From Hormiphora californensis (Eukaryota; Animalia; Ctenophora), in assembly GCA_020137815.1 (NCBI GenBank), contig CM035352.1, positions 8,928,001-8,992,000 on the forward strand: 64,000 nucleotides of DNA, given 5' to 3'. Positions 14,579 to 63,722 of this stretch are shown piece after piece. The notes beneath the pieces were generated by a model. It was not told where the DNA came from, did no database searches, and saw only the letters and a list, made by a program, of their open reading frames with translations. A program made the position numbers and the translations under genes. The number at the start of each line of letters is the position of its first letter. The first letter of the stretch is position 1.

Positions 14579-14705
14579 TTACACCTTGTGCAATGTGCCC
14601 ACCCTGTGCTTACACCCTACAACTGTGCGGAGCACCAACCACCAATGTTGGCTCCATTGCAACCTATTCTCAGTCACGCACGACGTCGATCTCACTCAGG
14701 TATCA

Positions 14706-15286
14706 ATGTGGCCAACCACCGATGGACCTCGTGGAGCGAGGAAAAGAGGGATCTACGGAAGGCGTGGAGGACTGAAGGCAGACGACGAATGGAGGGGCCG
14801 ATCCGGGATCCCTAAACCGGAGTTCATGGGGAAAGAAAATTCTTTCTGTAGTGCGATGCAGATAGCAGATTGTTCCACCTTTCCAAGATTTGTGGTGGAG
14901 TCACTGCAAAATTCAATTCGGGAGGCGTATGAGGAGTTGATCGAGAGGATTTTGAACGTGGACCTAGAGGCGCAGTGGCTATTGCGATTTATGGAATCAA
15001 ACTTGAACTGGCGTTGCAGTTTTCGGCCGTGGACTTGACCATGGTGAGGGCTAACAGAAAAAGCCAGATAGAAACCAAAGGGGCGGTGAGAAGATTGATG
15101 GTATCTTGCAGGAAGGAGCGCGGGTTGGTGATGCCATCACCTCTCTACTGTGGGCTGCCTCTCAATCAGCTACTGGTTGATGAGGGCCAAATCACACCTG
15201 ATGGATTTCCAGCACTCGAAAGGCTGCAAGGGATGAAATTGCAACCAGAGTTGAAGACCACCAAGAGGATAAGGAGAGCAGCATAA
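14706..15286 (+). pseudogene. Unknown coding module(s), frameshifted
   Basis: ATG 6 nt after CTCACTCAG|; ORFs 14706-15038 and 14975-15286; RANRKSQI has a synonymous-diverged paralog RPNRKSQI at ~28705. Confidence 0.4.
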
Positions 15287-16057
15287 ATGAAATCAACACT
15301 ACCATCAGGGACAATCGGGAGATAGAAAACTGAACTTAATTGGGGAAGTTCTTATCAGGAATGGTGGAAAAAAGGCATCGTGTACATATTATCACAACTT
15401 GTTTAACATATCAAAGATCGAAGGCAAGGCTTCCATCCAAACAGTTCACAATGAAAAAGCTTCTTAGGACAGACGGTAATAATAATGATTTTGAGATGTT
15501 TTAAACTAAATTTCAGCATTTTAACATTCGAAGAGTCAGGTGGCCAAAAAAGAGAGAGGTAGCGAGGAATCGTTTGAACAGCCTTCGTGACGGATTAAAT
15601 CTTGTACGCTTAAGAAATTTCTGAGCAGGGGTATAGAGATAGTAGTGAGGGAGGCTGCGTACAAATCGGCAGACAGAGAGTTATTCGCCCAGTTCAGATG
15701 GAGTAGTAGTGCGGCCACCCCATATGAGAAGAAGAATAAGTTACAAGATGTGATCAAATACAGGAGTATGATGCCGAGAAGGAATCTCACCGACCTGGAG
15801 CGGCAACGCGACGGTGATGACAGCCACCCCACGGCACGAGCAGTTCTAGAGGACTTGTGCAAACTTGTGCAGCGTCAATTGGACAATCTATTCTGGATTA
15901 TGAATTTGGACGCTGACAATTGTTAGTATGTTACACGGACTTATTTATTTATTTTGTGAAACAGTCGTTATAGCAGTTCTATTATAACTATCATGGATTA
16001 CCACATCATGGTGATCACTAGTATTCGTAGTAAAGTAACTGCAGCCCTTGTAGGAAC

Positions 16058-16290
16058 ATGTTTCCTATATTAAGTCGACCTGGACCGCTCCTTCTTCCAC
16101 TGTTATCTTTGCCATGCCCCTACGACTGTGGCTATTGGTACATGGAACAGAATCGGGAGGCGCACAAGAAGGTGTTCCCAAACCGGCCAAGAGAGTGCTC
16201 AATGTGCGAAGAAGAGGTAGGACAATTCACCTCGAAGCAGTGCGTCATTGTGCCTCGGAGGCGGCATCCATCGACATTGGAACGGGAGAG
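16058..16290 (+). pseudogene. SINA/Siah-type zinc-finger fragment
   Basis: LSLPCPYDCGY...REAHKKVFPNRPRECSMC resembles the Siah FPCKY..GC....H...C..RP..C segment. Confidence 0.6.
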
Positions 16291-16630
16291 GCATATGTCA
16301 TGTTGGGAATTGCCCCGGTAGTGTTATGTCACTTAGGGGTAGAGAGGAGGAGGAGGCATATGTCATGTTGGGAATAGTGTTATGTCACCTGGGTAGAGAG
16401 GAGGAGGAGGCATATGTCATGTTGGGAATAGTGTTATGTCACCTGGGTAGAGAGGAGGAGGAGGCATATGTCATGTTGGGAATCGCCCCGGTAGTGTTAT
16501 GTCACCTGGGTAGAGAGGAGGAGGAGGCATATGTCATGTTGGGAATAGTGTTATGTCACCTGGGTAGAGAGGAGGAGGAGGCATATGTCATGTTGGGAAT
16601 AGTGTTATGTCACCTGGGTAGAGAGGAGGA
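16288..16630 (+). repeat. 54/63-bp tandem repeat, 6 copies
   Basis: GAGGCATATGTCATGTTGGGAAT[CGCCCCGGT]AGTGTTATGTCACCTGGGTAGAGAGGAG; single copy in the paralog at ~22757-22820. Confidence 0.9.
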
Positions 16631-18957
16631 GAGGCAGGCAGGCTGTCCACCCAGGTTTTGGGGGATTATCCGGCAACCATGGCGGTGGGAGCGTCTGGAA
16701 GCATCGGAGGAAGAGTTGCCCACACTCAGAGGGGTTCATTCGGCGATCGAGTCGAGGTGGATATCTCTACGGGACCCTGGATCTTGTGCCGACTGAGAAC
16801 TCTCTCGAGGTTCCCGTGTCCTCCCCTGTTGTGTCCGTTGTAGTATTATATTGTATATTATAAACTTTGTATAACTTTTATATTTTTTATATAATTTTTT
16901 TAAATTCCCTGTAGCTTCATTTCCCCTTCTTAATATAACTTGAGTGACTCCTCTGTGAAAACCTGGAAACTAACCCACCCTCATTTTCCCTCTAGCTGAC
17001 ATGACCACTACTCGAGTATTACCACGACACTGAGGTTCTCACCAAAGAAGAGCTCGGCCTTGCCCTATTACCCGACAAGCTGCTGGTTACATCGGATGAC
17101 ACCCTTCTCCAATCTGTGTTTATGAGCCTAAAGATCCCTGCACTACCTGTTAGCCCATGTAAATTGCCCTGTACACCGGAAATTGATCTGTTTAACAAGG
17201 GTTTATTTTCCTTTTCTTTCTACTGGGATTGGCAGTGAACCCGTTTCCCTAGAGCCAGAGTCACCACACGCACATTTCTCAAAATATTCACTGTTTCTCT
17301 CACCCTCGGCATCGCTTATGTATGTGATCATACTTTCATCATCGCGTAATTTATCAATTTAATCTATCGTTTGATTATATTTACTAAGTTTATATTATAT
17401 TATTCCCTCATAGTTTGTTGTTAAAGGAGGGACATGACTACCATTATAATTGCACGATACCAGAGAATCAAAGCAGAAGCGGACACCCAGATTATTATCA
17501 TCAACAGATATTGTGGAGGATCTGAACCTATCCTACTCGACACAAGAACCGTACTGAGAGAAGTCCTTGGCGGACCTGCAGGAGAGGGGAGATAATATCT
17601 CTACAATAGAAGAGGTCGAAGCCCTTATTAACAAAATATGGAAGCTAGGGTATCAAGAACGATTCCCAAACAGCGAGCAATACCAAGCCCAGGATAATCT
17701 AGCCCAGGCGAACCGAAGTGGACTCGAGGACGCGGAGGCAGTGGGAGAGGGAGAACCAGCTGCTCAACGGACACTTAAATAATTTTTAGTTTTTTAGACT
17801 TTTATTTATATATGAATTAATTTTATACCTTTTTTAATCTTAATTCTTTTAACAAACCTTATCAGCTGTGCTTTAAATGTCGGCTATTATTCATACAAAG
17901 AAGGTGAAACGCAAGACCATCGATACCACACTGACACCGCCACCATGAACAATAATGAACAATAAATCTGTAACTGGGCCCTAAGTGGTGTGTTTAATTG
18001 TATCCGGATACCAGAGAATCAAAGCAGAAGCGGACACCCAGATTATTACTATTATTATCATCAACAGATATTGTGGAGGATCTGAACCTATCCTACTCGA
18101 CAGGACACCCGGAGAGCAGAAGTTCAAATTGGAACCTCCTATATATCCTACTCGACAGAACACCCGGAGTGCGATGGAACTTGCGTTAGTTGGAGGAGGA
18201 TAAAAGCCGTTTGAAATCCCAGCGTGAACTCATACTAATATTTTCCCTGAACATAACGATTCCCACTCCTAGGCGAAGTTTACCCAGATAAGAGACAGTT
18301 TGACCTCTAGTACTGCCCATTCTTTACAATTATTGAATAGAAAGTGCTGAAGGAATTGATTTAAAAGAGATCTAGATAGTTATGGCAACATTCTTCTGTG
18401 AACCATTGGAGTTAAATATTTTCTTACAGTCGGCGTGAGATACAAAGGGATGTATTCATTAACCCACCCCGGGAGTTCAGGAAACCTGGGTACGTCTGGA
18501 AGTTAAAGAAACCGATCTATGGTTTGGAGGATGCATCCTGGAGCTGATATTTTACGATCTCTAATGCTCTACAGGAGGTTTGTGGGGTTTCCCGCATCGA
18601 TAAGACGACGTTTTACGGGAGAAATTTTGTGCTTTTATCCCCCCTTTTTATCTTAGTACCCCAGAACCAGCAGTAGTACGAATTGAAACAACTGTATATG
18701 TTGAAGTCAGCGGTGGTGCTGTCAGAAGAAATTTATATGTAGGGATTTGTGTTTAGGGATTTGTGTTAATTTAGTAATTTTAATCTTCTATGAGCTACTT
18801 TTGTACCCAAGGTTGGAGATGAATAAAAGGATTAAAGGTAATTATGCTTTAACAATATCCTAACCATTTGTTAAAAAATCTTGAGCCACGTTGGAGATAG
18901 CTTTGACAATATACTAAAGATTTGTTAGAAATATTTTACCGCATGGGTGCTGTGACC

Positions 18958-18970
18958 CTATATAAATAAT
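18958..18970 (+). promoter_or_regulatory. Candidate TATA box, duplicated at ~27219
   Basis: CCTATA(TA)AATAATGG in a ~160-bp non-coding block conserved between 18830-18990 and 27090-27250, with upstream repeated GCTTT(A/G)ACAAT motifs. Confidence 0.35.
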
Positions 18971-21099
18971 GGACTGAACGAGAAGAACTTGGAACTCTGA
19001 TTCTACTGAGTATTCAAGTAATTCAAAGGAAAAGAGAGAAGATATCAAACAATTGGGTAATCCTTATACGACCTATTTTTTATAGGAACCCCCGGCGATG
19101 CGGTACTTGTCACCTACGTACCAACAGGATCCTAGCGATGAATATGATCCGGCATTTCCGACTTACCAAGATACCCCACCCTCCCTTTATACCTATGTGA
19201 GAAGAAGGAAACGATCTCAAAGCCCGATTTATCAAGTCAAGAGGAGATCACAAACGAGTATTATTCTTTTAAATGTTTTAAATAACTTTTTATTTTTTAA
19301 TCAAAATCTCCAGTGTCAACTCTAAAACGTGTCATGTCTTATATACTGTCGCTGTCTGCCGTCTTTGCCTTCGGACCGACATCACCAAGAGAGGACTGAA
19401 GAAGGGACTGGAGGACTGAAGTCAACCTAGAAGGCATGGTGTTATCAAAGGGCTAGGACCGACCGGTCCTAAGATATCTCATAATGGGGCGATTTAAGTA
19501 CGTCACGGCAATGTGTGACTGGTTGCTTAAAAAGCAGATCGCAACATGTTCTACTTCCCAGGGCGACAAAAAAGCCTTGTTATCATTTGTATGGCGAGCG
19601 GCATATCCACTATACCATCTCAACATGAACTCCTAAGACCTAAGACGTTATATTGTTGTTGAAGGAGTAGAGGGACCAACATGACTACCGTTATTGCACG
19701 ATAACAGAGAATCAAAGCAGAAGCGGGCACCCAGATTATTATTATCAACAGATATTGTGGAGGATCTGAACCTCTGAAAATTTCAGTGAAACTTTTTTTA
19801 TGGCCTCACATGGTCAGGCTGTTGCGGAAGCATAAGAGAGATGGGCCAGACATCACGACCCCGTGGCGGCTGAGCAGACCCTGGAGGAGGAGATTAGGGT
19901 AAAGACGGAGATTCTGGCATTGCTCCGGCCGAGAATGTGATCCCAGATTAATTTGAGGTCTATGACCTCAGATTAAAATACTTCCCTAGCCATGGCGTCT
20001 AGGTAGGGAAAAGTACATGGCATATTCCTGTATTACTTCACCTCGATGGATCGCCTATTCCTTATCAGCGTATATCTGAGCTGGCAGTAGCCCAACTTGA
20101 CCGAATAGTACTACATTTATCTGACGAGATCAAATCGAGGAAAGCCGTGTAGAAACTTGTCGTGGATTGTCTTGCGAGGTTTGATGCTACTGATGACGCA
20201 GGAGAACGTGTAAACTAGTTTCACCGCTTCACCGACCTTCACCGACCTTCACCGACCTTCAGATGCCACCTGCGCTGAGAAATTTTGGAGGATCTCGACC
20301 TGTCCTACTCGACATTGAACACCTGGAGAGCGGTGGATCACTACTAGCAAAGCCCTGAATTTCGTCGATATTCCGTTCCGACTCCTTATCGAGTTGCGAT
20401 GAAGGCGTAATTATTAAAAAAGGTATTCCCCTGCCGGCAGCTGTCAGTTCTCCTCCATCCAGAAAAGGAGCCTATTGGTCCCTTGGACGAGACTAAGTGG
20501 ACAACAAGAAAGAGGCGTCATCACATGTAAAACAATGAGTGATAGGCCAGTCATATGATACATGAAAGAAAAAAATAATTAATCTAAATGTGATTCCACT
20601 TCAATAAGTCCCTGCAGAACCACCAAAGAAATTTCACACTTGTTTCTTCTCTGACAGGTCTAATTAGTTTTAGAAGAAGATATCTTAGAGAGAGTGAGAA
20701 CAGCCCCTCTGACCATTCTGCTATTATCCATTAACCAGCAACCTGTCATCGGCCAGGGACATTAAGTCGACCTGGACCGCTCCTTCTTCCACTAGTGCGT
20801 TAGCTGAGTCACGTGACTCTGCCCTGGGAAAGGGGAGTTGAGAGAGAGAGGAGAGAAGGTTCTGCATCTCCATCGAAACATAATAGCTATAAGTTGTTTC
20901 GACTGTAGTGTTTGGTGCGATTCTGCAACTAATAGAGTAAAGTAATTACGAATAGTATAGTGATTTAGAGATTTTGCCGGCACCCTAATATTTACTTGGA
21001 CACGTTCACCCCTCAGAGGGCCCCTAGCTCCCCGTGTCCCCTAATAATTGTTTATGAGAAGTTCGATATTACGTAGTTTTATAGAGTTGTATATTCTAA

Positions 21100-22690
21100 T
21101 GGATCTTGAGAGAGCACCAGTCTGCCACGAGGTGATCATTACAAACATCATCGCAGCTGTGAGCACGGTCACATTGTCTGTACGGAATGCAAAGAATTGG
21201 GGAGTTTGTCCTCTCTGTCGGGCTTCTTTAGTTCCGGGGATTAAGGGTACACCTGGCGTTTTTCATCATCGAGTGCCCAACCAAATGACTTCACCAGGGT
21301 TTAGGCCATACAAAATGGACCTCAAATATGCAATTTTAACCCTAAAGTCGAATTCATATTTTTGCTACAGCCTATTTTCAAAGTGGCGTTTTTTCAATTT
21401 TTGTTGAAATTTTTAACCTCAGGACCACTTTTTTTGAGATAGAAACATTAAATTCTTGGAATTTGAAGAGAATATAAAGGTGAATAAGCCCAAAGAAGGA
21501 TTTTTGAAATGGAGCTTATTTCTGGCCATGAGAACGGTTTACTTTTTTGCTTCTTTGACACGCTGGCTGAGAATGTTCCCATGCTTCATTAGAGATGAAA
21601 ATCTGGAAATAGTTGCTCAAAACGATTATCTATGTGGCCCAAAAATTTTGGAACTTTCCCGCCAAAGATGTGGTGTACAGAGCTTTTTTTGTGAAACCTG
21701 TCTTTTTGAAAAAGAGGGAAATTCCCTGTATCTCAAAAACGGATGATCATAGAGACCTGGGACCAAGCTTAATCGATTCAGAAGGTCCGATTTTGGGGGG
21801 GTCTTCTGAGAGACATTTTGCTCCTACTCCAACCGATTTTGCTGTAATTGCAAAAAACTAATTCTATGAAAAGGGGAAACAACTCTATTCCAGTAGCCTG
21901 CTTCGGGCTGATTTCCCCCTTACTTGCTGATACCTTTTTCGCAATTACAGCAAAAACGGTTGGAGTAGGAGCAAAATGTCTCTCAGAAGACCCCCCCAAA
22001 ATCGGACCTTCTGAATCGATTAAGCTTGGTCCCAGGTCTCTACGATCATCCGTTTTTGAGATACAGGGAATTTCCCTCTTTTTCAAAAAGACAGGTTTCA
22101 CAAAACAAGCCCTGTACACCACATCTTTGGCGGGAAAGTTCCAAAATTTTTGGGCCACATAGATAATCGTTTTGAGCAACTATTTCCAGATTTTCATCTC
22201 TAATGAAGCATGGGAACATTCTCAGCCAGCGTGTCAAAGAAGCAAAAAAGTAAACCGTTCTCATGGCCAGAAATAAGCTCCATTTCAAAAATCCTTCTTT
22301 GGGCTTATTCACCTTTATATTCTCTTCAAATTCCAAGAATTTAATGTTTCTATCTCAAAAAAAGTGGTCCTGAGGTTAAAAACTTCAACAAAAATTGAAA
22401 AAACGCCACTTTGAAAATAGGCTGTAGCAAAAATATGAATTCGACTTTAGGGCTAAAATTGCATATTTGAGGTCCATTTTGTATGGCCTAAACCCTGGTG
22501 AAGTCATTTGGTTGGGCACTCGATGATGAAAAACGCCAGGTGTACCCTTAAGCACCGTACGCTGGTCGCTGGAGGCCATGGCGGCTATGTTGTCTTTGCC
22601 ATGCCTGTGGCTATTGGTACATGGAACAGAATCGTGAGGCGCACAAGAGGGTGTCCCCAAACCGGCCAAGAGAGTGCACTGACAATACAC
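21100..22690 (+). pseudogene. SINA/Siah-like RING E3 ligase pseudogene split by a Kolobok-type element
   Basis: After removing 21245-22551 and allowing frameshifts: PVCHEV..SCEHGHIVCTECKEL..VCPLCRASL...LEAMAAMLSLPC...REAHK..PNRPREC. Confidence 0.7.
21245..22547. mobile_element. 1.3-kb palindromic non-autonomous element, Kolobok-type
   Basis: ~610-bp near-perfect arms; termini GGGTACACCTGG...CCAGGTGTACCC (RR...YY); TTAA at 21241-21244 and 22548-22551. Confidence 0.9.
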
Positions 22691-23087
22691 CTCGGAGCGG
22701 TGCATCATTGTGCCTCGGAGGCTGTACCCATCGACATTGGAAGGAAGGAACGGGAGAGGCATATGTCATGTTGGGAATCGCCCCGGTAGTGTTATGTCAC
22801 CTGGGTAGAGAGGAGGAGGGGCAGGCAGGCTGTCCACCCAGGTTTTGGGGGATGATCCGGCAACTATGGCGGTGGAAGTGTCTGGAAGCATCGGAGGAAG
22901 AGTTGCCCACACTCAGAGGGGTTCATTCGGCGATCGAGTCGAGGTGGATATCTCTACGGGACCCTGGATCTTGTGCCGACTGAGAACTCTCGAGGTTCCC
23001 GTGTCCTCCCTTGTTGTGTCCGTTGTAGTATTATATTGTATACTATAACCTTTGTATAATTTTTATAATTTTTTTATATACCCCCGC

Positions 23088-23330
23088 GAGATAACACAGG
23101 GTGGAGTCAGCAGATCGACAGTCCAATCTACTACTGTCCTGCGTGAGCTCCAAGTGGATTCTGTAGGACACTGTTTGGGTGAATGCCTGATGCAAAAGCG
23201 GTGTCACCAGATCTCATACAATTTCGAATCTGGTGATTGTCACCTGGAGACCGGACTGAGTTATGGAGCAGGCAACGTGCATGGGGACATCCTGATCAAC
23301 CAGTACTCGGTCGACTGTCTTTCCTGTTAG
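23088..23330 (+). CDS. Isolated PAN/apple-like domain module
   Basis: VDSVGHCLGECLMQKRCHQISYNFESGDCHL fits the PAN pattern S..C...C.....C....Y......C.L; no clear start. Confidence 0.6.
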   Translation, partial: EITQGGVSRSTVQSTTVLRELQVDSVGHCLGECLMQKRCHQISYNFESGDCHLETGLSYGAGNVHGDILINQYSVDCLSC

Positions 23331-23656
23331 AATTCATGGGCATGGACCGTGAAGTAGCTTGCGGATCGGGCAGAAACGACTTACATAGCAGACTAATGCG
23401 GGAGTTACAGTTAGTGAGGAGGAAAATCCGGGGAATGATCTTGACTGTTTCCACGACCTGAAACAATCCTATGATTTGGGCCCCTCCGACGAATCGAGGG
23501 CTCGGGAGAAGAGAGGATGGGAGATGTTAGACGTCCTGGAACATATTCCCATAGCGGGGCATTTTTACCAAATACTAAAGAGCCCATCGGAGATATATAG
23601 GCCGGTACAAATTGATATATTATATTTAAATATTTATACTATTATGTTAATTATTA

Positions 23657-25067
23657 CCGTAAGTTGGGGTAACTTTGTACCACTTTTTAGCATTCTCCTA
23701 AAATAACTCCTTGCCAGAACCACACTCGAAAATTTTTGAACCAAATAATCCCGTTCCAGACCTAGTACACCAGATATAACTAGTGAAATTTTTGGTCCCC
23801 TTTCATTTAATTACATTAATTAACGTGTATTTTAGTGTAAGTGGGGTTTTAGGGCATGGGGTAACTTTGGAATGAGGGTGGGGTAACTTTGGACACCCGT
23901 CCAAAGTTACCCCACGATAGTAATATTGGAACAAACATAAATCCGAACATTTTGTAATGATACATAAATGAACCTAAAATGTTTAAATGGAGTTTAAATG
24001 GGTCAATAAATTAAAAAAAGAACAATAGGGTAAGCCAAACGCCCCATGATTTAAAAAAATGGTTGATCTCGACTCAACTTTTTTGGGTGTGAGGAATAAT
24101 GAAACTAACCACCAAATAAAATTTCAGCTCAATCGGACTTGATTTAGAGGTTGCCACATCCGGCCTGAAACCCATCAAACTTCAATAATTTGGGGTCCCT
24201 CATTCACCCTGTAGTTTGGTAGATGGTATTGAACCTCTAGGCGAGTGTGTTAGTTCTTTTTGCTGAATTGGATAGACAGGAAGTGGTCTACTTATGGGTA
24301 CTTGATAAATAAAGGAGTTTTGGTATCTCCATACTCCTGTATAGATTGTCTACAAGAACTAACACACTCGCCTAGAGAGCCAATACCATCTAACAAGCTA
24401 CAGGATGGATGAGGAACCCCAAATTATTGAAGTTTGATGGGTTTCAGGCCGGATTTCTGTGATTTAGCTCCATAAAATAGTCCAAATCCTAGTTGTTTTC
24501 ACTAACATATCGAATATATAGATGGAAATGGGCGTGGAGTGGGCTGAATCTTGGTTATATAGCCCTAAATAATTCAGTGAGGGTCTAAGGCAACTCTACA
24601 GACATCAAAAGTTCAAAACCTATAGTGTGGGGTAACTTTGGCACCCCGTCCAAAGTTACCCCAAAATTCAAAAAACGGTGGGGTAACATTAGCCACCCCT
24701 ATTAGTCTCAATTAAAGTAATAATTGATCGGGTTTGAAAAATGGTGCCCCGAATTATTTGATCGAAACCCTTCCACTCTATGGAGCAAACTTGATTCGGT
24801 CATTAGCCCGGTCAAATCTATGGTACCCATTTTGATTTGAACATTTTTAGCGATTTTGAGATCAATTATGTTTGCCCCTAATTAGGAGCCAATTAGCATA
24901 GAATTGAAAAAAATAATTGTACCGTTAGTTAGACATTTGTGGGTCAATTACTTGTACACCCAAAAATTATGCCAAATATGTCGTTATCTGTTGGTAATTT
25001 TGGACTAAAGCCAAATTTCGAAAGTGTCCAAAGTTACCCTGCAAAACAAAGTTACCCCAGATTACGG
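23657..25067. mobile_element. Non-autonomous pogo/Tc1-mariner element
   Basis: TIR CCGTAAGTTGGGGTAACTTTG / CAAAGTTACCCCAGATTACGG; TA TSD; GGGGTAACTTTG subterminal repeats; empty-site paralog TTATTA|TCTGGTATCGAACTAATTTTA at ~26495-26521; internal palindrome 24158-24454. Confidence 0.88.
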
Positions 25068-26790: not shown

Positions 26791-26910
26791 TTGATCTTGA
26801 GAGAGCACCTCACATGCCCTGTATACCACGAGGTCACCACTACAAACATCATCGCAGCTGTGAGCACGGTCACATTGTCTGTGCGAAATGCAAAGAATTG
26901 GGGAGTTTGG
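26791..26910 (+). pseudogene. SINA/Siah-like RING fragment
   Basis: LREHLTCPVYHEV then (frameshift) SCEHGHIVCAKCKEL; near-identical to 21100-21208. Confidence 0.65.
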
Positions 26911-50084: not shown

Positions 50085-50336
50085 AGTGGTTCAGGAGAGC
50101 GTGGTTACCCTGCAAAGGGAGTGGTGCAGGAGAGCGTGGTTACCCTGCAAAGGGAGTGGTGCAGGAGACCGTGGCTACCCTGCAAAGGGAGTGGTTCAGG
50201 AGAGCGTGGCTACCCTGCAAAGGGAGTGGTTCAGGAGAGCGTGGTTACCCTGCAAAGGGAGTGGTTCAGGAGACCGTGGCTACGCTGCAAAGGGAGTGGA
50301 TCAGGAGACCGTGGCTACCCTGCAAAGGGAGTGGAT
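50085..50336 (+). repeat. 35-bp minisatellite, ~7 copies
   Basis: GAGTGGTTCAGGAGAGCGTGGTTACCCTGCAAAGG. Confidence 0.93.
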
Positions 50337-52695: not shown

Positions 52696-53669
52696 TTGTG
52701 ATTCCCCAGTAGCTTTTCATGTCACTACCAAGGTCCCGATCGATTGGACGCAATTTGCTAGAGGTGAACCTCTGGAGAGGAGGCCCATGGACAGTGTAAT
52801 TGTAGTTCCAGGAGGCCATGTCTTGGAAATTGTATACTGAGTATTGTATACTGACTTTAGTCAATGCTATTGTCTAGGTGAAGTCAGGCGAGATCGAGAT
52901 TATAGACGATGAAGATTGCGACCAGGACGTCTCTCGGTGTGAAAACCCCTTACGAGGACAGCCAAGACTGCACATCAGACTGGCATATCGGATAGAAACT
53001 TGTGCCGGAACATCCTGGCTTACCATTGGGTGAGCTACTCAAACTAAGGATATAATTTATTTGATTAGTTATATTACAGTCGGACCCCGATTTAGGGACC
53101 CCCGATTTAGGGACACCCCGATTTAGGGACAGGATTTTTTCCCCCAAAAATTTTTTGAATTTTTTTTGTGAAATTTTTTGTGAAATTTTTTTGAAAAATT
53201 TTCAAAAAGATACCAGCCACGTCCGAATCGTGTTTCGAATCAGTGAATCTTATCGCATGTCCTGCTGCTAATTAGAAGTTTCGGAACGAACCGATACGTG
53301 ATCCCCATGCGGCCATTGAATCACAAGTTCACCAAGCGTCAAAATTTCGATTCGATGGGGATCACTTTTCGATTCGTTCCGAACCGTCTAATTAGCAGCA
53401 GGACATGTGATAAGATGTACCGATTCAAAACATGATTCGGACGTGGCTGGTATACGTTTAAAAAATTTTACAACTTTTTTGCAAAATTTTACAGTACGAT
53501 TGTCAATGCTTTGATCGGTGCTCCCCATAAATTTTGAGAGAAAAAGTTATTTTGAAATTTTCATACTTCCTAACCCGGTTAGGGTGCCCCGATTCACAGT
53601 TCTCTCAAAACATTTTCTCTTGTGCTTGTCCAGTTCTTTTAACAGTTGCTGTAACCTTATACCTTGGGT

Positions 53670-54737
53670 ATGTCCCGTACTCTGCTTAATGCTGCGAATA
53701 CGGGATACACGAGTTTGACCAAAATTAAAGCGCAGATCGACAAGGTGATCCAGTCATCCGGAAAAAGTAAAGAGGATACCATCAAGGAGTACAAGAAGCT
53801 CATGGAATGGGTGACAGGGGTGCTCGACAGGGATCTACCAGCAATCCAACGTGTTTTGCAGGGGAGTGAGGGCATTGCTAAACTGCAGAAAGAAAATACA
53901 GACTTGAATGGAGAGGTAAGTGTCTTGACAGCGAAGAATGCAGATCTTTGGAAGGTGAATGAGAAGTTGACAGACTACAGCAAGGTAACTGATAAGGTCC
54001 AGGAAATGCTGACCGAATTCAAGCGGGACCTCCCTGATCCAGCCCATTCTCAAGTTGATGTCACCATGAAGAAGGAGATCAAGGATGCAGTAAAGGACAA
54101 CCTGAAGGAGGTCATGACTGAAGCTGTGAACAAGATCGTGAATACCGATAAAATGAAGAAGACATTTGCTGAGGTTGTTAATAACTCCCAGAACATCATC
54201 AAAAAGGAAACAAAGAAGTGTTTCGACGAAAGTCTATCTTCTGCCCTGCAGGAGAGCCAGAACGAAATTGTCGCTAAGACTACAGCCCGACAAGAGGACG
54301 ATCAGTTTGAAAAAGAGAGGAGAGTCCGGAACGTGACAATTGTCAACATTCCTGAAAGTTCTCTTCCTGAATCCAAGGATAGGGAGGAAGCTGATGCAGT
54401 GTTTACCAGTGAATTACTGCAGATACGGAGAAACCAGGTAATAACTTGCTACCGAGCTGGTCCCCCGATCGGGACAGGTTCAAACAAGGATAAAGAGGGA
54501 CCACGACCCCTAATTGTTATCTTGGAGACTCCTGAGCTGGCCAAGTCTAAGCACAAATATGGTAACGGAGATAGACTAATTGTTGATGGAGTGATTTACT
54601 GGGTGAACCCCGACCTGACTCGGGCGGAAAGGAAGGCAAACTGGCGGGCAAGGGCGAAGAGGAAGGATCGGGCCAGGAGAAGAGAAGATGGGGGTACCGC
54701 ACCAGATTCGGGAAACTCCGCCATCGTTGTGACGTAA
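53670..54737 (+). CDS. LINE ORF1 (coiled coil plus RRM-like/CTD region)
   Basis: Uninterrupted ~355 aa; KTFAEVV, ERRVRNVTIVNIPES, YRAG, PRPLIVIL, YWVNPDLTRAER motifs typical of CR1/L2-group ORF1. Confidence 0.85.
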   Translation: MSRTLLNAANTGYTSLTKIKAQIDKVIQSSGKSKEDTIKEYKKLMEWVTGVLDRDLPAIQRVLQGSEGIAKLQKENTDLNGEVSVLTAKNADLWKVNEKLTDYSKVTDKVQEMLTEFKRDLPDPAHSQVDVTMKKEIKDAVKDNLKEVMTEAVNKIVNTDKMKKTFAEVVNNSQNIIKKETKKCFDESLSSALQESQNEIVAKTTARQEDDQFEKERRVRNVTIVNIPESSLPESKDREEADAVFTSELLQIRRNQVITCYRAGPPIGTGSNKDKEGPRPLIVILETPELAKSKHKYGNGDRLIVDGVIYWVNPDLTRAERKANWRARAKRKDRARRREDGGTAPDSGNSAIVVT

Positions 54738-54745
54738 GGACTTTA

Positions 54746-57700
54746 ATGCACTCAACTGCTAATATTGACAGTCATCTCAAGATATATTACACAAATGCCA
54801 ACGACTTAAAAAATAAAATACATGAGTTAGAACTCACGGCTAAACTCAATGACTGCAAGGTTCTTGGTGTAACGGAAACTATGTTCAGTGACGAGATTGT
54901 AGACGCTGAAGTGTCTATTGCTAATTTTAAGCTATTCAGAGTAGATAGGCAAAGTAAAGGAGGCGGTTCGTGTCTTTATATTCATGATTCGATTCAGTGT
55001 CACGAAATAATAATCAATGTCCCTGAATGTGCTTGCGTCAAAATAATGTTTGATACAATTTCCATTGTGCTATTCATTGTATACCGTGCACCTTCACTGT
55101 CCCTAATTGAAAATAAATGTATGTTAGATAGCTTATCTGTGGCAGTAAAACAAATGTCTGCTGAACATGAAATTATTATGATGGGGGACTTCAACCTCCC
55201 TGATGTTTTGTGGGATGTAGGTGTAGTCGCATGTCCGTTTAACCCATTAGTGCCCAGATATCGAAATTTTTGAAGAAATTTTCCAATTTTTTGGGAATAG
55301 TGCCCTAGCAGCACCAATATGGTAAGTTGAAAAGCGGAAGTCTCTATCTTATCGGGAAGTGCTTAAAACAACCTGTTGCGAAAACGCATCACTGGCACGT
55401 CCCATTTTCGCAACACTTTTCGAAGTCATTTTACAGCTAAAATTATGATGCAATCATTTTAAAATTTCACTTAACAGACTTCAATCTGTTATGAAAATAA
55501 TTTGTGATATCTAGTTTTTGTCTCCGGGCAAGTTTAAAATTCGTTGCGTTTTCGCAACAACATTCGCAGCCTGTTAACAGCTAAACATTCAATAATTTTT
55601 TTCAAACTAAGTTATTAATGGCAGTCTAGTAATAGTAGAAATAGTTTGTGATAGTCAGACTTAAGCTTGGGGCAGCTTAGAGTTTCGTTGCGTTTTCGCA
55701 ACACCTCATTCGACAGCAAATCTGGCCATCTCGTACAGTGTTTTTGACTTCTATACTACTGAGCAGCACCGTAAAGGTCTTACTACGGTATCTATGGGGA
55801 ATTTGAAGGAAATCAGAAAGGTTGCGTTTCCGCAACATGCAAAAATGTCAGCAAATAGTGCCACCCTCACACCAATATAATTTCATTATGAAATAGCAGT
55901 TAAATTATCACTAAACTTGATTTGAACCGACATTGGGTGAATCATATCGATATTGGAAGGTGGGAGATCATGTTGGATTAGAAAATAAGGTTGAATATTT
56001 GTAGATTTGACCGAAAATTCATGAAAATATAGTGTTTAGTGTGGGGGTATAGCCACTTTCAAGCCCAGTGGGCATATCGTTAGCCATTCTGTGTCTCCCA
56101 GGCCATAATCACTCACTGGGGCGTCCTCTGAGTTGTCCCAGGTGTTTCCCGGAGACTCCTGAGAGCTCGCTGAGCCGCTCTAGATACTCCCTAAAAAGTC
56201 CTATATACTCCATGAAACGTACTGGGACCTCCAAGGTGCTCCCTGAGTCGCCCAAGGCGCTTTCGGGGACCTCTCAAACGCTCTTTTAGGCGTCCTGTAT
56301 GCCCCTTGAGTCGTCTTGAGACCTCCCAGGTACTCCCTGAGTCGTTCAGTGTACTCGGTGAGTCCTCCTACGCTCCCCTGGGTTGTTTCAGGCGCTCTCT
56401 GAGTTGTTGCTGGTGCTCTCTGAGTCGTCCCAGACGAACACTGGGACCTCCTGGGTGCTCCATTTGCCGTTTCGGATGCTCCTTGATTCGTCCTGGGACA
56501 TCCCAGGTGCTCCCTGAGTCGTCCACTTTGCTCGAGGAGTCCTCCCACGCTCCCCTGGGTTGTTTCAGGCGTTCCCTGAGTTGTTGCTGGTGGTCTCTGA
56601 GTCATCCCAGACGATCACTGGGACCTCCTGGGTGCTCCATTTGTCGTTTTGGATGCTCCTTGATTCGTCCTGGGACATCCCAGGTGCTCCCTGAGTCGTC
56701 CACTTTGCTCGAGGAGTCCTCCCACGCTCCCCTGGGTTGTTTCAGGCGTTCCCTAAGTTGTTGCTGGTGGTCTCTGAGTTGTCCCAGACGATCACTGGGA
56801 CCTCCTGGGTGCTCCATTTGCCGTTTTTGATGCTCCTTGATTCGTCCTGGGACATCCCAGGTGCTCCCTGAGTCGTCCACTTTGCTCGAGGAGTCCTCCC
56901 ACGCTCCCCTGGGTTGTTTCAGGCGTTCCCTGAGGTGTTGCTGGTGGTCTCTGAGTCGTCCCAGACGATCACTGGGACCTCCTGGGTGCTCCATTTGCCG
57001 TTTTGGATGCTCCTTGATTCGTCCTGGGACATCCCAGGTGCTCCCTGAGTCGTCCACTTTGCTCGAGGAGTCCTCCCACGCTCCCCTGGGTTGTTTCAGG
57101 CGTTCCCTAAGTTGTTGCTGGTGGTCTCTGAGTTGTCCCAGACGATCACTGGGACCTCCTGGGTGCTCTCTTTGCCGTTCTGGGTGCTCCCTAAGTCGTG
57201 CCGGGTGCCTCTAGCTCGTCCCAGATGTCCCACGAGGTCATAGGTTAGACATATCAAACACTAGAATCGTTAATAACAAGATAAAAATGGCCCAGAGTCA
57301 TTTACAGTACTAAATTGTTTACTTTATAGATGTTGCGAAAACGCAACGATTGGAAACGGTTCATATACACACTTTCAACCAACCACAGTTGTAAAATGTA
57401 ATGTTTATAAGCATACTGATGTATAATTTTGCTAAATATCCCACTAAATGACTCAGAAACCGGCAGAAACAGCCAAAAAGTGTGTTGCGAAAACGCAACG
57501 ATAAATCGTTTGAGTTGATTTTTTTGCTTTAATCGATTTTAAAAAATATAAAAAGTCACCAAAAATAGCCCTATAATTTTTATTTATTTTAAATTGCCCC
57601 TTAACATGCTTTGAAAACCTCCAATATATGCCCCGTGCCAGTGTAGCGTTTCCGCAACCCACTTGTTTGAGGCTCTACAGGGCCAACAGGAAATCCGTTT

Positions 57701-58682
57701 GAGATCTAGTTTTTTTACAGAAACATCTCTGAACATTTCTCTAACTGATCAGCTATGTGTCATATCGGTAACTAGTCGAGATATATTACATAAATGCACA
57801 TTTATGTGCATTAGTCCGAATGCCAGAAATTGGTACTTTTTGATTGATAATTACGGAAATTAGGGTCAATTTAGAAAACTTTTTAATGACTAAAATTTTA
57901 GTTCGAACGATTCTCTAGTGATGTGTGGTGGTTACAGCATTTCAAATGCTCATATCTAGCCGTAATACGCCTCCAAACCTGGGTTGCGATAACGCGTCAC
58001 AGGTCACTAATGGGTTAATACCTCTAATCAAAAGTATATAATTCAGCAATTGTTTCTAGATTTCTTCGTGCAACATGATCTCACCTGGGTTATCGGCGAT
58101 GGTGTTAAAACTCGCAGGCGTCAAGTTTTAAATGAACTACAGGCAGCAACACTTGATAATGTCCTAACGTCAGACAACAACATCTTTGCTGATGTACATG
58201 TGACCGCACCTCTGGGAAAATCAGACCATGTCGGAATTATTAGCTCCTGGCGCATATCCAACAACTCGGAGTACATGCCTCATGAGAAGCGGAACTGGTC
58301 AAAAATGTCCCCGGAAAAGATCATAGCTGCTAATCACAATCTACAATGGGAGTGCAGTTCAGACTCAGTGGATATTCTATGGAAGAGCATGCATGCCAAT
58401 GCTATGAAGATTGTTGACCTGGTACCTATCAGCAAGATCCGTGTATCTCACACGGGTGCAGTGAAAACAAAATCCGTGTGGGACCGCCCTTGCCTTGAGA
58501 AGGCCAGGAAGCAGAAAGAGAAACACTGGGCTGAGTTTGAGAACTTTCCAACACATCGCAATCTTAGCATAGCCCTTAGCAAGCAGGGTGTGTTTGACAG
58601 GTGCCAAAATTCGTATGCTGAGTACATGTCTGCTAATCCGTCGCTAGCTAAATTAAAGGGAATTAACACCAACATGTTTTAG
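54746..58682 (+). CDS. LINE ORF2-derived APE endonuclease (386 aa after removing the piggyBac insertion)
   Basis: YTNAN, VTETMF, DRQSKGGG, VYRAP, MGDFNLP (54746-55242) join in frame (ACPF|NTSNQKYIIQQLFLD) to TLDNVL and GKSDH (58019-58682). Confidence 0.85.
55243..58014. mobile_element. Non-autonomous piggyBac element, 2.77 kb
   Basis: TTAA TSD (55239-55242, 58015-58018); TIR CCCATTAGTG(C/A)CC; recurrent GTTGCG(AAAA/TTTT)CGCAAC palindromic motifs; excision restores the host ORF. Confidence 0.93.
56290..57200 (+). repeat. 177-bp tandem repeat, ~5 copies, inside the piggyBac element
   Basis: TGCTCCTTGATTCGTCCTGGGACATCCCAGG recurs at 56477, 56654, 56831, 57008. Confidence 0.93.
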
Positions 58683-61503
58683 AGAACCGAACTGTTTTAA
58701 TGGTCAATGTATGTGCCTGATGCACATTTCAATGTATATTTTTAATTACTATTGTGGGAAATGGAAGTGAGTTTAGACGTAATTTGCGTAGAGTGAATTT
58801 CGAGTTGGCCGTGTGGCCAAAATCTTTATTATTATTATTATTATGGTATCACGTATCGGTTCGTTTTGAACCCGCTAATTAGACAGGACATCCAGTAAGC
58901 TGCACTGATTCGAAACACAAATCGGACGGGCTGGTATAACTTAGAAAATTTTTCCACATTTTTTTTGAAAAAAAATTATTTTATATTTTCCTATTTCTAA
59001 TCAGAAATGATCATGTCATCAATATATGAATATTGCATATATAACAGTTAGAGGTGTCTTTAGTCTTAATAATATAGGATGTTGGGCATAAAATAGGTTT
59101 TTATGGGTCAAATATGGCTCACCCCGATTTAGTGGACACCCCGATTTAGTGGACAAGACCCTTTCCCCCGAGGCTGTCCCTAAATCGGGGTCCGACTGTA
59201 TTAACAATGAACGAATGTAATATCACAATTGGACAGAATATTGTGACGGGCAAACTTCTTTACAAACCGGTATCAAAGAAAACCATCTCTCGTTCCCGGT
59301 GGTGTATTCAATATTCTGAACCCTACTACAGATTGGAACCGGTCGTCATCTGTACAATGCACGATTTAATTTCCAGCTACAACGAAAGCTTAGTATCCTC
59401 ATCTCAAAGGATATCCTTATCTTTAAATCTACTGTGTCTTGAAGAAGGTTTAACTGCCGAAAAACTACGTAGTTAGATGTTATATTATACAATTCAATAA
59501 AACTTACGTAGTTAGATGTTATATTATACAATTCAATAAAACTTGTGGAGGAGAGGACCTAAGAAACGTTATGGGAAGACACAGGAAATTGTGTTGGGCA
59601 AACTTCATAACAAACCATAACAAAGGGGCTATCACCAAGTACAATCTGATTTATGTTTTGTTATTTATGTTTTAATATTTATCTATTTTGAGCTTCTTTA
59701 ACTAAGAAGAACGGTTGATATTTTAAACGGGACTGATATTTATGAAGAGACTTCCTGTTGCAATGCTAGTGGATGCCATTATAGGAATATGTAATATTCC
59801 AAAATTCCTAAAATGTGTTTGTTACCCACTTCCGACTCCAGTCGACTGCAGTCCAGCCAGGGGAAATGACAACACACCATCAGGTCCTAGCAATTCCGAG
59901 GACGTCTTCCTTCTCCCAAACACCTTCAATGTGCGGCCTACCACCCCAACCAACCCTATTCATCCCTTCTACTGTTAAATGCTGGGACTGGAGGCTTGAA
60001 CACTGTTCCAGGAACTTCCTACAATGTGTCCGGAACAGAATGAACGAACACACGACAGAAAATGGAAGCCCTCTTCAATAAAGAGAGACGAAAAGTTGGC
60101 GAAAATTGTAAAATCTTACTATGATTTTGGATCAACCGTAGACTTTTTGAATTGTATAGCGAGCACTAACACTGCTAGTAGTAGTACATAGTGTGAACTT
60201 GCTTGACTTGCATAGTGCATAGTTTGGGTAAAAGATCCCATGTCCATATAATGACCTGTATAACAGAATGAACTAACACAGAGAACGAAAAGGGAGAACA
60301 AAAACAAGAATATTTAATTAATGAAATTTATAAATCTAGAATAAAATGGTCATGTTGTTTATAAAAACCAGATTAAACGAACGGTACGCAATTAGCAGAA
60401 CCTCCGACTGAATACGACATAAGATATGACTGATGAGAATAACAATAGGGAGAACAAGAGAGTTCCCTCACCAACCCTATCCATCCCGGAGAAGATGTCA
60501 GGGATTCCTTGGAGAAGTTGAACAAGGCGAGCATTCATCGATGCAAACCCTAGGGGAAACCATCCATGATGAATTCCAACCCAGCAAAGTTAGGAGCACG
60601 GAACTTACGACGCAGTAAGGAATATTCTAGTTGTATTTGGAAGTGAAGTTATGACCACTGACTGATATTGAGATGAAATAGGGGATGAGGAGAAAAGACG
60701 GTCTCCGGCTTATTCGGAACGAGAGAGCTCCCTCACCAACCCTATCCATCCCTAGAGAAGATGTCAGGTAGAACCCTTCCTGGCTTTGTATCTTCAGGGC
60801 CGCCGTACACCGGGCGAGGACAGGAACCTACCCAAACAGGGAGGAGGCCGTAAAGGCATGCTGTATCGCCGTGAAGGAACTCAAAGGTGTATACACCATT
60901 GATAACGCAGTTTCTGCTATTGGGCGGGCACAGAAACAATCCAAGAAGTAGAGGCGGAGGAGGCCCGGCTCCAAATGGGGCCGGAGGCTCCTAGAGAGAG
61001 GAGGGTCTACCCCTTGAGGGAGGTCCTCTTCGATCTCCGAGGGTGGTGCACAGTCACCATCCAGGAACATACAGATTTAGATTCCATAACTTCAGCTACA
61101 GTATCAGTCCACTACCTTTGTATCCACCTTTGGATCCACCAAGCAGTTGCATTATGATGCACAACTTTTTCCTCCGATTTGTGAGTCTAGCTCAGTGACT
61201 ACATGCAGAAGCTTGGAATCTTCTTGAAGTACCGTGGCTGTTACACAACGTATGTATAGTATGTATATAATATGGGGTATGTATGAAGAGGAGCATCACA
61301 AGATCACACCTGGAGTGCATTATAGCGGGGGGGGGGGGGGTCGGAGCGGAGTTTACCAAGGATGGATACTGGTTAGCGAGGCCATACTTGGGGTTTTAAT
61401 TAATGTTCTCACTTTTACATTTTTTGTGTTAAGACCAGATGCAAGGACACTCGAGTGGTGCATTGCACACAGAACGAAGATCTATCTGGACGAAGATAAC
61501 AGG

Positions 61504-63123
61504 AAGGGTATTCTAAGGAGCCAACTGCTGGGAGTCGCATCACTCAGAACAATAGTCAAGACATTGAGCCACAATACATCCCTTCAAAAGGGTATTCTAA
61601 GGAGCCAGCTGATGGGAGTGGCATCACTCAGAACAATAGTCAAGACATTGAGCCACAATACATCCCTTCAAAAGGGTATTCTAAGGAGCCAGCTGCTGGG
61701 AGTGGCATCACTCAGAACAATAGTCAAGACATTGAGCCACAATACATCCCTTCAAAAGGGTATTCTAAGGAGCCAACTGCTGGGAGCGGCATCACTCAGA
61801 ACAATAGTCAAGACATTGAGCCACAATACATCCCTTCAAAAGGGTATTCAGGGGAGCCAGCTGCTGGGAGTGGCATCACTCAGAACAATAGTCAAGACAT
61901 TGAGCCACAATACATCCCTTCAAAAGGGTAAGGAGCCAGCTGCTGGGAGTGGCATCACTCAGAACAATAGTCAAGACATTGAGCCACAATACATCCCTTC
62001 AAAAGGGTATTCTAAGGAGCCAGCTGCTGGGAGTGGCATCACTCAGAACAATAGTCAAGACATTGAGCCACAATACATCCCTTCAAAAGGGTATTCAGGG
62101 GAGCCAGCTGCTGGGAGTGGCATCACTCAGAACAATAGTCAAGACATTGAGCCACAATACATCCCTTCAAAAGGGTATTCAGGGGAGCCAGCTGCTGGGA
62201 GCGGCATCACTCAGAACAATATTCAAGACATTGAGCCACAATACATCCCTTCAAAAGGGTATTCTAAGGAGCCAGCTGATGGGAGTGGCATCACTCAGAA
62301 CAATAGTCAAGACATTGAGCCACAATACATCCCTTCAAAAGGGTATTCTAAGGAGCCAGCTGCTGGGAGTGGCATCACTCAGAACAATAGTCAAGACATT
62401 GAGCCACAATACATCCCTTCAAAAGGGTATTCTAAGGAGCCAACTGCTGGGAGCGGCATCACTCAGAACAATAGTCAAGACATTGAGCCACAATACATCC
62501 CTTCAAAAGGGTATTCAGGGGAGCCAGCTGCTGGGAGTGGCATCACTCAGAACAATAGTCAAGACATTGAGCCACAATACATCCCTTCAAAAGGGTAAGG
62601 AGCCAGCTGCTGGGAGTGGCATCACTCAGAACAATAGTCAAGACATTGAGCCACAATACATCCCTTCAAAAGGGTATTCTAAGGAGCCAGCTGCTGGGAG
62701 TGGCATCACTCAGAACAATAGTCAAGACATTGAGCCACAATACATCCCTTCAAAAGGGTATTCAGGGGAGCCAGCTGCTGGGAGTGGCATCACTCAGAAC
62801 AATAGTCAAGACATTGAGCCACAATACATCCCTTCAAAAGGGTATTCAGGGGAGCCAGCTGCTGGGAGCGGCATCACTCAGAACAATATTCAAGACATTG
62901 AGCCACAATACATCCCTTCAAAAGGGTATTCTAAGGGGCCAACTGCTGGGAGTGGCATCACTCAGAACAATAGTCAAGACATTGAGCCACAATACATCCC
63001 TTCAAAAGGGTATTCAGGGGAGCCAGCTGCTGGGAGTGGCATCACTCAGAACAATAGTCAAGACATTGAGCCACAATACATCCCTTCAAAAGGGTATTCT
63101 AATGAGCCAGCTGCTGGGAGTCG
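61504..63123 (+). repeat. 84-bp minisatellite (~19 copies) with a 667-bp higher-order repeat
   Basis: Unit GGGTATTCTAAGGAGCCAGCTGCTGGGAGTGGCATCACTCAGAACAATAGTCAAGACATTGAGCCACAATACATCCCTTCAAAA; 5-bp deletion at ~61928 and ~62595; AATATTCAAG variant at ~62220 and ~62887. Confidence 0.95.
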
Positions 63124-63722
63124 CAACCAGACCAGAATGAGTGTGCGGACCCTGAGATTACAGAAGCAATGGTGACGAATGAGATGGGGGCATTCGAGAC
63201 TGCAGATGGTTTGGTGTTCTTTAGAAATAGAAACAGAAGTGCTGGCGATGATGTCGGATCTCAAAGTGGGGAAAATCACTGTTACCCGCCCGGACAGTAA
63301 ACCCGCAGAAGAGCTGGTTACACGTCAACCAGAGACTAAACGAGCTGAAACGGAGTGCAGAAGCAGAGGCTATGGTAGAAGAGGAAAAGCCTGTCCGCGA
63401 AGCCTACCAGGAATTCGTGAAAGCCACAGTCTACTTGTGGAACCTACGGAGCCCGATAGAGATCAGCTAAATTTTAAATTCTTTTCAACCTATTTCTTGT
63501 TTCCATCTTGTTTACCAGACAGAGTTCTAAGGGAAAATTCGGTTTCACCTCATTTTTTCTTTGTGGAGGGAATTGTTGTATAGTCACAGTTGTCGTTCTG
63601 TCTGTGGTTGTCCTCTCACTCTCACGGTAGTAGTCATGGTAGTGCTCAGTATAGAGATTACATAGTTAAGGGGAAGAACACCACCGTTGCCTTGGTTGTC
63701 ATGGTAACGAGAAGGTGTCTAA

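What the first reader, a model, noticed from the sequence alone, without database searches (positions are those of the whole stretch)
14700..63600. ~49-kb mosaic of co-oriented, shuffled mini-gene modules: possible decayed cargo of a giant mobile element or endogenous DNA virus
Seen: once MITEs and satellites are removed, the rest is short (50-150 codon) coding modules, essentially all on +, recurring 2-5 times in different orders and separated by T-rich spacers. Paralogs differ at synonymous sites or conservatively (MPLKRLIVT family; DIVEDLNLSYST vs EILEDLDLSYST; RANRKSQI vs RPNRKSQI), so they were once under protein-level selection. Recognisable modules are alpha-kinase, SINA-type RING, CCHC knuckle, PAN, SGNH and hAT/pogo transposase scraps. 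Inference: compact, one-strand arrays of small kinase, E3 and zinc-finger genes look more like an accessory-gene region of a large DNA virus or giant transposon than a normal host locus. I saw no capsid, polymerase, integrase or helicase gene, so its identity is open.
Basis: partly seen in the sequence, partly recalled or inferred. Interest (0 to 1): 0.8.

Follow-up and report, generated by a model that had tools for sequence, protein, structure and literature searches.

The report
Decayed one-way array of orphan genes
In a marine animal genome, about 49 kb holds broken pieces of once-selected kinase, RING-finger and unknown genes, all facing one way and patchily duplicated; they are likely leftover cargo of a large mobile element or DNA virus, but no gene that would identify such an element was found.

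Summary
The observation largely holds. Every module I could name lies on +: four diverged alpha-kinase copies, PAN, SGNH, a copia RT scrap, a LINE and a weak SINA-type RING. None of 173 minus-strand ORFs matched Pfam below E 0.006. All 43 local duplicate pairs are direct. Old paralog pairs show purifying selection (pN/pS about 0.04-0.4); the youngest show none detectable.

Corrections:
- Only 31% of the non-repeat sequence has a second DNA copy in the window.
- Much of the 'shuffling' is collinear tandem duplication.
- Many 'mini-genes' look like fragments of longer, decayed, intronless genes.
- hAT, pogo and CCHC could not be confirmed by a tool.

T-rich spacers tend to start at plus-strand stops (21 of 41 versus 5 of 23). 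Four of eight module contigs sit at half the depth of the neighbouring host gene, suggesting presence/absence polymorphism. I found no capsid, polymerase, integrase, Rep/helicase, termini, hammerhead or close relative.

Best reading (0.42): decayed accessory-gene region of an unidentified large DNA element or virus. Rivals: an oriented capture site such as a piRNA cluster or Helitron (0.28) and a host birth-and-death gene cluster (0.25). The scan's notes held nothing similar.

The parts
14717..63600 (+). Whole mosaic: about 30 kb of low-copy decayed coding pieces and T-rich spacers, about 19 kb of MITEs, satellites and a LINE; right end not defined
14706..15286 (+). Two abutting orphan ORFs (110 and 81 aa); the second is the RANRKSQI family, paralog at 28657-28755
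15340..15926 (+). Broken orphan coding stretch; lies within the 15228-16131 segment recovered from seawater run X7
16034..16893 (+). Cys/His-rich piece resembling the zinc finger that follows the SINA RING (recalled resemblance), with internal 54-63 bp tandem repeat; duplicate of 22588-23080
   Evidence: no Pfam or PDB match to SINA
17319..17545 (+). 'DIVEDLNLSYST' piece; further copies at 18007-18272, 19649-19773, 20278-20338, 25601-25976
18272..18675 (+). Copia-type reverse transcriptase scrap; 92% duplicate at 26037-26436
   Evidence: RVT_2 E 8e-5
21093..21243 (+). SINA-type RING, frameshifted; copy at 26793-26950
   Evidence: Sina_RING E 0.005 and 0.03
21245..22547 (.). Palindromic MITE flanked by TTAA on both sides, inserted between the RING and the zinc-finger-like piece; very high copy
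23049..23330 (+). PAN/apple domain
   Evidence: PAN_1 E 1e-6
27496..28636 (+). Three diverged tandem copies plus one young partial copy of the orphan 'KVKLP/PRKLWD' domain, directly upstream of kinase 1
   Evidence: pS 0.85, pN 0.24, p 1e-8
28850..29336 (+). Alpha-kinase 1, broken by a stop and frameshifts, no T-rich intron-like tract
30332..30595 (+). Possible pogo/Tigger transposase tail (recalled resemblance only)
   Evidence: no Pfam match
30748..30969 (+). Alpha-kinase 2, C-terminal half, DLQG motif present
   Evidence: PF02816 E 3e-8
33831..34073 (+). MPLKRLIVT domain copy 1; young copy at 35219-35470, old stand-alone 55-aa copy at 49028-49195
35700..36182 (+). Alpha-kinase 3, broken; 98% partial duplicate at 34052-34252
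40737..41816 (+). 359-codon open frame: 30-bp E/Q/A repeat, acidic stretch, CCHC-like knuckle
41940..42263 (+). SGNH/GDSL scrap
   Evidence: Lipase_GDSL_2 E 3e-5
44422..44574 (+). Alpha-kinase 4, fragment
   Evidence: PF02816 E 3.5e-4
46144..46570 (+). Block with a DDE-transposase-like scrap (recalled resemblance); 97% duplicate at 51014-51444
   Evidence: no Pfam match
46928..50593 (+). Patchwork of 40-80 bp pieces repeated in different orders (ENISC, MATPK and others)
53655..58682 (+). LINE ORF1 and endonuclease, split by a 2.7-kb insertion and cut short before the RT
   Evidence: Exo_endo_phos_2 E 2.5e-5 and 8.5e-4
61504..63125 (+). 84-bp tandem array with open frames on +

Best explanation
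The region is a decayed, locally re-duplicated array of co-oriented genes that were once under purifying selection, and it is likely the remnant of the accessory-gene (cargo) region of a large DNA mobile element or endogenous DNA virus. SHOWN: one orientation; tight packing with T-rich spacers starting at stops; four diverged alpha-kinase copies and several orphan families with low pN/pS; later direct duplications of 35-430 bp; MITE and LINE insertions; stops and frameshifts. INFERRED SEQUENCE OF EVENTS: (1) the source expanded small kinase, E3 and orphan genes by tandem duplication while active, probably to act on host signalling; (2) it became fixed in this chromosome; (3) selection lapsed, and slippage or unequal crossing-over copied short pieces forward; (4) host transposons inserted and deletions left the locus polymorphic between haplotypes. 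Today it is probably non-coding, apart from possible transcription near its left end.
For: Ten of ten families with an assignable strand are on + (6 by Pfam, 4 by selection and open frames; binomial p 0.002 if independent). Stop-then-spacer packing in 21 of 41 spacers. Kinase spans of about 470-480 nt carry no T-rich tract, while the neighbouring host gene has internal exons of about 170-230 nt. Old paralogs sit side by side with saturated silent sites. In run X1, 4 of 8 listed module contigs (272-518 nt, no differences from the window) have depth 134-157, against 269-346 for 4 contigs on or near the host gene; ordinary 2-3% heterozygosity would not leave such stretches unshared. A second sample (X5) holds variant versions. 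The nearest kinase relative (P0004, 40% identity, E 6e-6) occurs as variant, often truncated copies on short marine metagenome contigs; in L001 it is an uninterrupted frame of about 390 codons after an AT-rich spacer. That fits repeated or mobile DNA.
Against: No Pfam or PHROG match to any capsid, polymerase, packaging ATPase, integrase or Rep/helicase on either strand. No terminal repeats among the module duplicates. The kinase profile matches vertebrate TRPM7 kinase best (E 4e-8; myosin heavy chain and eEF2 kinases about 5e-4 to 9e-4), so it is an animal-type gene. Copia RT, SGNH and LINE pieces share the orientation, which one virus does not explain. Copy number looks low: summed depth in module bins is roughly 1 to 4 times that of the host gene (the tool warns that this is no copy number). 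Depth was checked only for 1-31.9 kb. Direct orientation of local duplicates is expected under any tandem mechanism.
Confidence: 0.42

Rival explanations
1. An oriented capture site. Fragments of unrelated elements and genes (copia, LINE, SGNH, kinases, RING) accumulated in one orientation, either in a one-strand piRNA cluster transcribed from the minus strand or by stepwise Helitron-type capture. The selection signal was then earned at the source loci, not here.
For: Scraps of different mobile classes are all on +. Short pieces are reordered at 44.6-52.7 kb. Mosquito core piRNA clusters are enriched for viral fragments in antisense orientation (10.1101/2022.08.22.504762, start of abstract in listing). 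Bat Helitrons carry mixed gene and transposon fragments (PMC4224331, passages).
Against: Diverged paralogs sit next to each other in tandem, and stop-then-spacer packing looks like native gene order. No convincing Helitron 3' hairpin plus CTRR on + (only 6-bp stems) and no A-tails.
Confidence: 0.28
2. A host birth-and-death cluster of fast-evolving defence or signalling genes (ALPK/TRPM-type alpha-kinases, SINA-type E3, PAN protein, orphans) that expanded in tandem and became pseudogenes, with presence/absence variation.
For: Animal-type kinase motif. Nearest Atlas clusters of P0004 are all eukaryotic, the first mostly chordate. Low copy number, present in both samples of the species. Orphan domains lie directly upstream of kinases 1 and 3, as in multi-domain genes. 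Some T-rich tracts at 34-40 kb have GT and CAG at their ends by eye.
Against: Kinase and RING spans lack the frequent introns of the neighbouring host gene. Splice acceptors after spacers are not enriched over the minus-strand control (14 of 41 vs 8 of 23 CAG). Spacers of 50-130 nt between a stop and the next frame are very short for separate host genes. At least six unrelated families are interleaved.
Confidence: 0.25
3. An assembly artefact, or chance ORFs in repetitive DNA.
For: ORF counts are equal on both strands; many named modules are weak or unconfirmed.
Against: Short-read contigs of 270-520 nt match the window with no differences, and a second sample holds variants. Silent-site bias has p 1e-5 to 1e-8 in several families.
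Confidence: 0.05

Closest known systems
Teratorn (piggyBac-herpesvirus fusion, about 180 kb, medaka; PMC10175614, passages)
   Same: Large gene-dense foreign-looking block in an animal chromosome with many genes of unknown function.
   Different: Teratorn has TIRs, a transposase and 17 herpesvirus-like genes, and 30-40 copies of its main subtype; none of these was found here.
Terminons of bdelloid rotifers (PMC6431247, section 8 read)
   Same: Long arrays of accessory ORFs that include a GDSL/SGNH esterase, with captured host genes (co-orientation of their ORFs is my recall).
   Different: No Penelope-type RT, no hammerhead, no telomeric repeat pair.
Helitrons with captured fragments (PMC4224331, passages)
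   Same: Mixed gene and transposon fragments, chimeric order.
   Different: No Rep/helicase, no convincing 3' end, and old paralogs in tandem.
One-strand piRNA clusters (flamenco; mosquito clusters with viral fragments; listings)
   Same: Fragments of several mobile classes in one orientation in a repeat-rich locus.
   Different: Most pieces here are orphan or kinase genes rather than known transposons; no small-RNA data available.
TRPM7/ALPK-type alpha-kinases (PF02816; PDB 1ia9)
   Same: H-W-x(10-12)-D-L-Q-G-V-G...DP core.
   Different: Compact, apparently intronless, four diverged broken copies within 16 kb, no channel or Ig domains seen.

Membership tests
Polinton/Maverick, Teratorn-like or other endogenous large DNA virus | Capsid, DNA polymerase, packaging ATPase or integrase gene | tested here: inconclusive
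   No Pfam or PHROG match in the ORFs scanned on both strands; decay and divergence limit sensitivity, and the element may extend beyond 64 kb
Polinton/Maverick, Teratorn-like or other endogenous large DNA virus | Terminal inverted repeats with target-site duplication | tested here: inconclusive
   No inverted pair among 43 module duplicates; right end not in view
Polinton/Maverick, Teratorn-like or other endogenous large DNA virus | Relatives in viral contig collections | tested here: inconclusive
   6 of 6 IMG/VR scans empty; they find close relatives only
Polinton/Maverick, Teratorn-like or other endogenous large DNA virus | Compact, intron-poor gene packing | tested here: met
   Stop-then-spacer in 21 of 41; kinase spans without intron-like tracts
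Terminon | Athena/Penelope RT | tested here: inconclusive
   Only a copia-type RT scrap and a LINE endonuclease were matched
Terminon | 3' hammerhead ribozyme with telomeric repeats | tested here: not met
   Rfam none; core motif 15 vs 11.3 expected; own structural scan 0 (shuffles also 0, so sensitivity is unknown); CCCTAA pair 0
Helitron | Rep/helicase gene | tested here: inconclusive
   No match; non-autonomous copies lack it
Helitron | 3' hairpin plus CTRR, AT target | tested here: inconclusive
   Only 6-7 bp stems, none at a region border
One-strand piRNA cluster | Fragments of several mobile classes in one orientation | tested here: met
   Copia RT, SGNH and LINE on +
One-strand piRNA cluster | Strand-biased 24-32 nt piRNAs | not testable with these tools
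   No small-RNA run listed
Alpha-kinase (PF02816) | Profile match and DLQG catalytic motif | tested here: met
   34.4 bits vs cutoff 21.3; TRPM7 kinase E 4e-8
Alpha-kinase (PF02816) | Intact full-length domain | tested here: not met
   All four copies are broken or partial
SINA/SIAH E3 ligase | RING followed by zinc finger and substrate-binding domain | tested here: inconclusive
   Sina_RING 17.4 bits vs cutoff 29.3; no PDB match

The most novel reading that the evidence does not exclude
The region is the fossil of an undescribed large DNA virus or giant transposon of an early-branching marine animal (probably a ctenophore, by my recall of its intron repeats) that carries an expanded set of alpha-kinases and RING E3 genes in one-way arrays. 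The 0.9-kb segment found in one seawater library with next to no host-repeat depth would then come from a transcribed or free copy.
Probability: 0.2. Interest if true: 0.8.

Novelty: new variant of a known kind. Interest (0 to 1): 0.46.

Why it matters
If the source is an element or virus, it would be a new vehicle for alpha-kinases and E3 ligases in an animal lineage with few described DNA viruses. Intact copies elsewhere in the genome would make this directly testable. Five literature searches listed no paper linking alpha-kinases to such elements; only listings were seen. If it is a piRNA-type capture site or a host gene graveyard, it is still a clear case of a polymorphic orphan-gene nursery, but of modest interest.

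Tried and rejected
No whole genome is held, so no genome-wide search was possible.

Homologue searches. Word-based searches found nothing for kinase 2 among longer proteins or for MPLKRLIVT. The representative search returned 4 proteins, 3 of them low-complexity repeats that I dropped. The Atlas gave no usable hit for MPLKRLIVT. IMG/VR was empty in 6 of 6 scans, and the JGI scan for MPLKRLIVT was empty. PHROGs gave 1 marginal hit in 60.

Folds. Both AlphaFold models were poor (pLDDT 52 and 51). Fold searches with the first gave nothing (best E 0.07, best Z 4.5). The second was not searched.

Expression and free copies. No RNA holder was listed. Run X16 (RNA by guess, same species) and marine DNA runs X8, X9 and X12 showed next to no cover of the modules; this is no evidence either way.

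Trans-splicing. I tested whether spacers end in trans-splice acceptors, since ctenophores trans-splice widely (PMC8527503, passages). Acceptors were not enriched over controls, so I dropped it as unsupported. A candidate in-frame intron near 40.7 kb failed because the GT is out of register.

Other mechanisms. Terminon and processed-mRNA concatenate readings were dropped (no hammerhead, no A-tails).

Dropped rows. One search stopped after 6 of 13 comparisons. In one search, 7 of 19 comparisons were out of register and were dropped. In one search, 7 of 20 passing rows were on the minus strand: 4 are antisense shadows of the kinase and MPLKRLIVT pairs, 2 overlie DNA duplicates and contain stops, and 1 (E 2e-3) is unexplained and probably chance.

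The scan's own notes had nothing for this place or sequence; the one word hit was an unrelated archaeal array. No supplements were read.
Full report
Setting. The window is animal genomic DNA from a marine species: its holders are 'organism A' and marine metagenomes. Bases 1-2185 carry an NRF-6-like acyltransferase gene with short introns (Acyl_transf_3 E 1.7e-4; sequence). I think the host is a ctenophore, from recalled intron repeats; no call tests this. No genome was available.

What is in 14.7-63.6 kb. By my hand-drawn mask, 18,924 of 48,884 bases are MITEs, satellites and a split LINE. Contig depth in the MITE bins of the left half is about 1e4 to 5e5, while module bins give a few hundred to a few thousand. 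Of the 29,960 remaining bases, 9,335 have a second DNA copy in the window. The 43 duplicate pairs (35-432 bp, 73-98% identical, at most about 9 kb apart) are all direct. Blocks 16.1-21.2 kb and 22.6-27.2 kb share six pieces, five in the same order, so they are largely one tandem duplication with later indels. At 44.6-52.7 kb seven short pieces recur in different orders.

Identity of modules. Pfam on 90 plus-strand ORFs of the region, 62 more and 30 frames read through stops with X gave alpha-kinase, PAN, SGNH, copia RT, LINE endonuclease and a weak Sina RING. 173 of 174 minus-strand ORFs of 45 aa or more gave nothing below E 0.006. Four alpha-kinase copies lie within 16 kb, all broken or partial. 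Their profile matches the TRPM7 kinase best. A TTAA-flanked MITE sits between the RING and a zinc-finger-like piece; the SINA reading of that piece is recalled, not matched. The hAT, pogo and CCHC labels could not be confirmed. Orphan domains lie directly upstream of kinases 1 and 3, so some 'mini-genes' are probably domains of longer genes.

Selection. MPLKRLIVT 33831 vs 49028 gives pS 0.74, pN 0.30; the kinase halves give mismatches by codon position of 2/2/13 and 0/0/9. KVKLP gives pS 0.85, pN 0.24 and kinase 2 vs 3 gives p 1e-6. An all-frame scan found six plus-strand families with p below 0.01. Choosing frames by protein alignment biases pN down, but the third-position excess in the ungapped pairs is plain. 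The young MPLKRLIVT pair differs at 6 sites with no silent excess. Most other young pairs have too few changes to judge; one (39645 vs 40412) still shows a silent excess, p 0.005. Selection therefore predates the latest duplications.

Packing. T-rich tracts number 41 on + and 23 on -. An open frame of 40 codons or more ends at the tract start in 21 of 41 on +, 5 of 23 on -, 11 of 41 read backwards and 29% of random sites. Splice acceptors at tract ends are not enriched. Kinase spans of 471-481 nt have no such tract, while host internal exons are about 170-230 nt. This looks like compact, intron-poor genes separated by short AT-rich gaps, though a few tracts at 34-40 kb may be introns.

Copy number and polymorphism. 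In X1, which may be the source sample, contigs on or near the host gene have depth 346, 269, 284 and 324. The eight listed module contigs have 134, 145, 150, 157, 212, 354, 389 and 485. Four unbroken contigs at half depth imply that the other haplotype shares no 31-mer there. In simulation this does not happen at 2-3% divergence (0 of 4000) and is rare at 5%. X5, another sample and study, covers all 30 bins of 12-31.9 kb with variant contigs. The locus is thus low-copy and probably structurally polymorphic.

One odd run. X7, a seawater library labelled RNA-Seq, holds 15228-15551 and 15564-16100 with 0 and 2 differences at depth 3-7. It has next to no depth on the MITEs, which dominate host DNA. 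This hints at transcription or a non-chromosomal copy, unspliced across a spacer. It is one sample, contigs only, strand unknown.

Relatives. Among 1.84 billion representatives the only real hit for kinase 2 was P0004, a 220-aa alpha-kinase (E 6e-6). Its near-identical variants occur on seven ENA contigs of 0.6-1.8 kb, six of them in a cluster whose five aligned members diverge after the catalytic core. One JGI contig, L001, has it in an uninterrupted frame of about 390 codons after an AT-rich spacer. No neighbouring genes are visible. All other searches were empty (see Tried and rejected).

Mechanism and verdict. Shown: a real, one-way, once-selected, now broken gene mosaic with nested direct duplications and insertions. 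Inferred: its source. Compact intronless packing, tandem old paralogs, orphan content and half-depth segments favour the cargo region of a large element or virus (0.42). The shared orientation of unrelated retroelement scraps favours an oriented capture site (0.28). The animal-type kinase and low copy number favour a host cluster (0.25). It fails or cannot be tested for the defining features of Teratorn, Polintons, Terminons and Helitrons, so I file it under none.

Papers seen: PMC8527503, PMC10175614, PMC4224331, PMC11663942 and 10.1101/2025.04.19.649669 as passages; PMC6431247 as passages plus section 8; all others as search listings only.

Noticed in passing
window 1-2185 (+): NRF-6-like acyltransferase host gene with five short introns; one intron carries a repeat of very high copy (about 750-860). 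Used as the depth control.
   Followed up: partly
window 5400-7250 (-) and 7495-7941 (-): LINE with a CCCH-rich ORF1 and a truncated endonuclease, plus another LINE-like tail (labels by recall); both on the strand opposite to the mosaic.
   Followed up: no
window 8179-9569: Near-perfect 631-bp inverted repeat (99.7%), a young palindromic MITE.
   Followed up: no
window 12156-14582: Contigs in X1 and X5 join 14582 to 12156, suggesting a nested 2.4-kb insertion or element ends just left of the mosaic.
   Followed up: no
window 15228-16131: Recovered from seawater library X7 at 99.6-100% identity with next to no MITE depth.
   Followed up: partly
window 44617, 47310, 48084, 59201: A shared start piece (T-rich tract, then an ATG reading MNE-C/F-NIT) heads otherwise unrelated frames; the 47310 copy was seen by eye.
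   Followed up: partly
window 56299-57190: 177-bp tandem array with open frames on both strands, inside the insertion that splits the LINE.
   Followed up: no
window 37878-37905: Short CCCTAA-like run; it did not pass the search for two adjacent telomeric units.
   Followed up: yes
L001 196-1350: Uninterrupted alpha-kinase frame with an unrecognised N-terminal domain (no Pfam match), ending early like P0005-P0009.
   Followed up: partly
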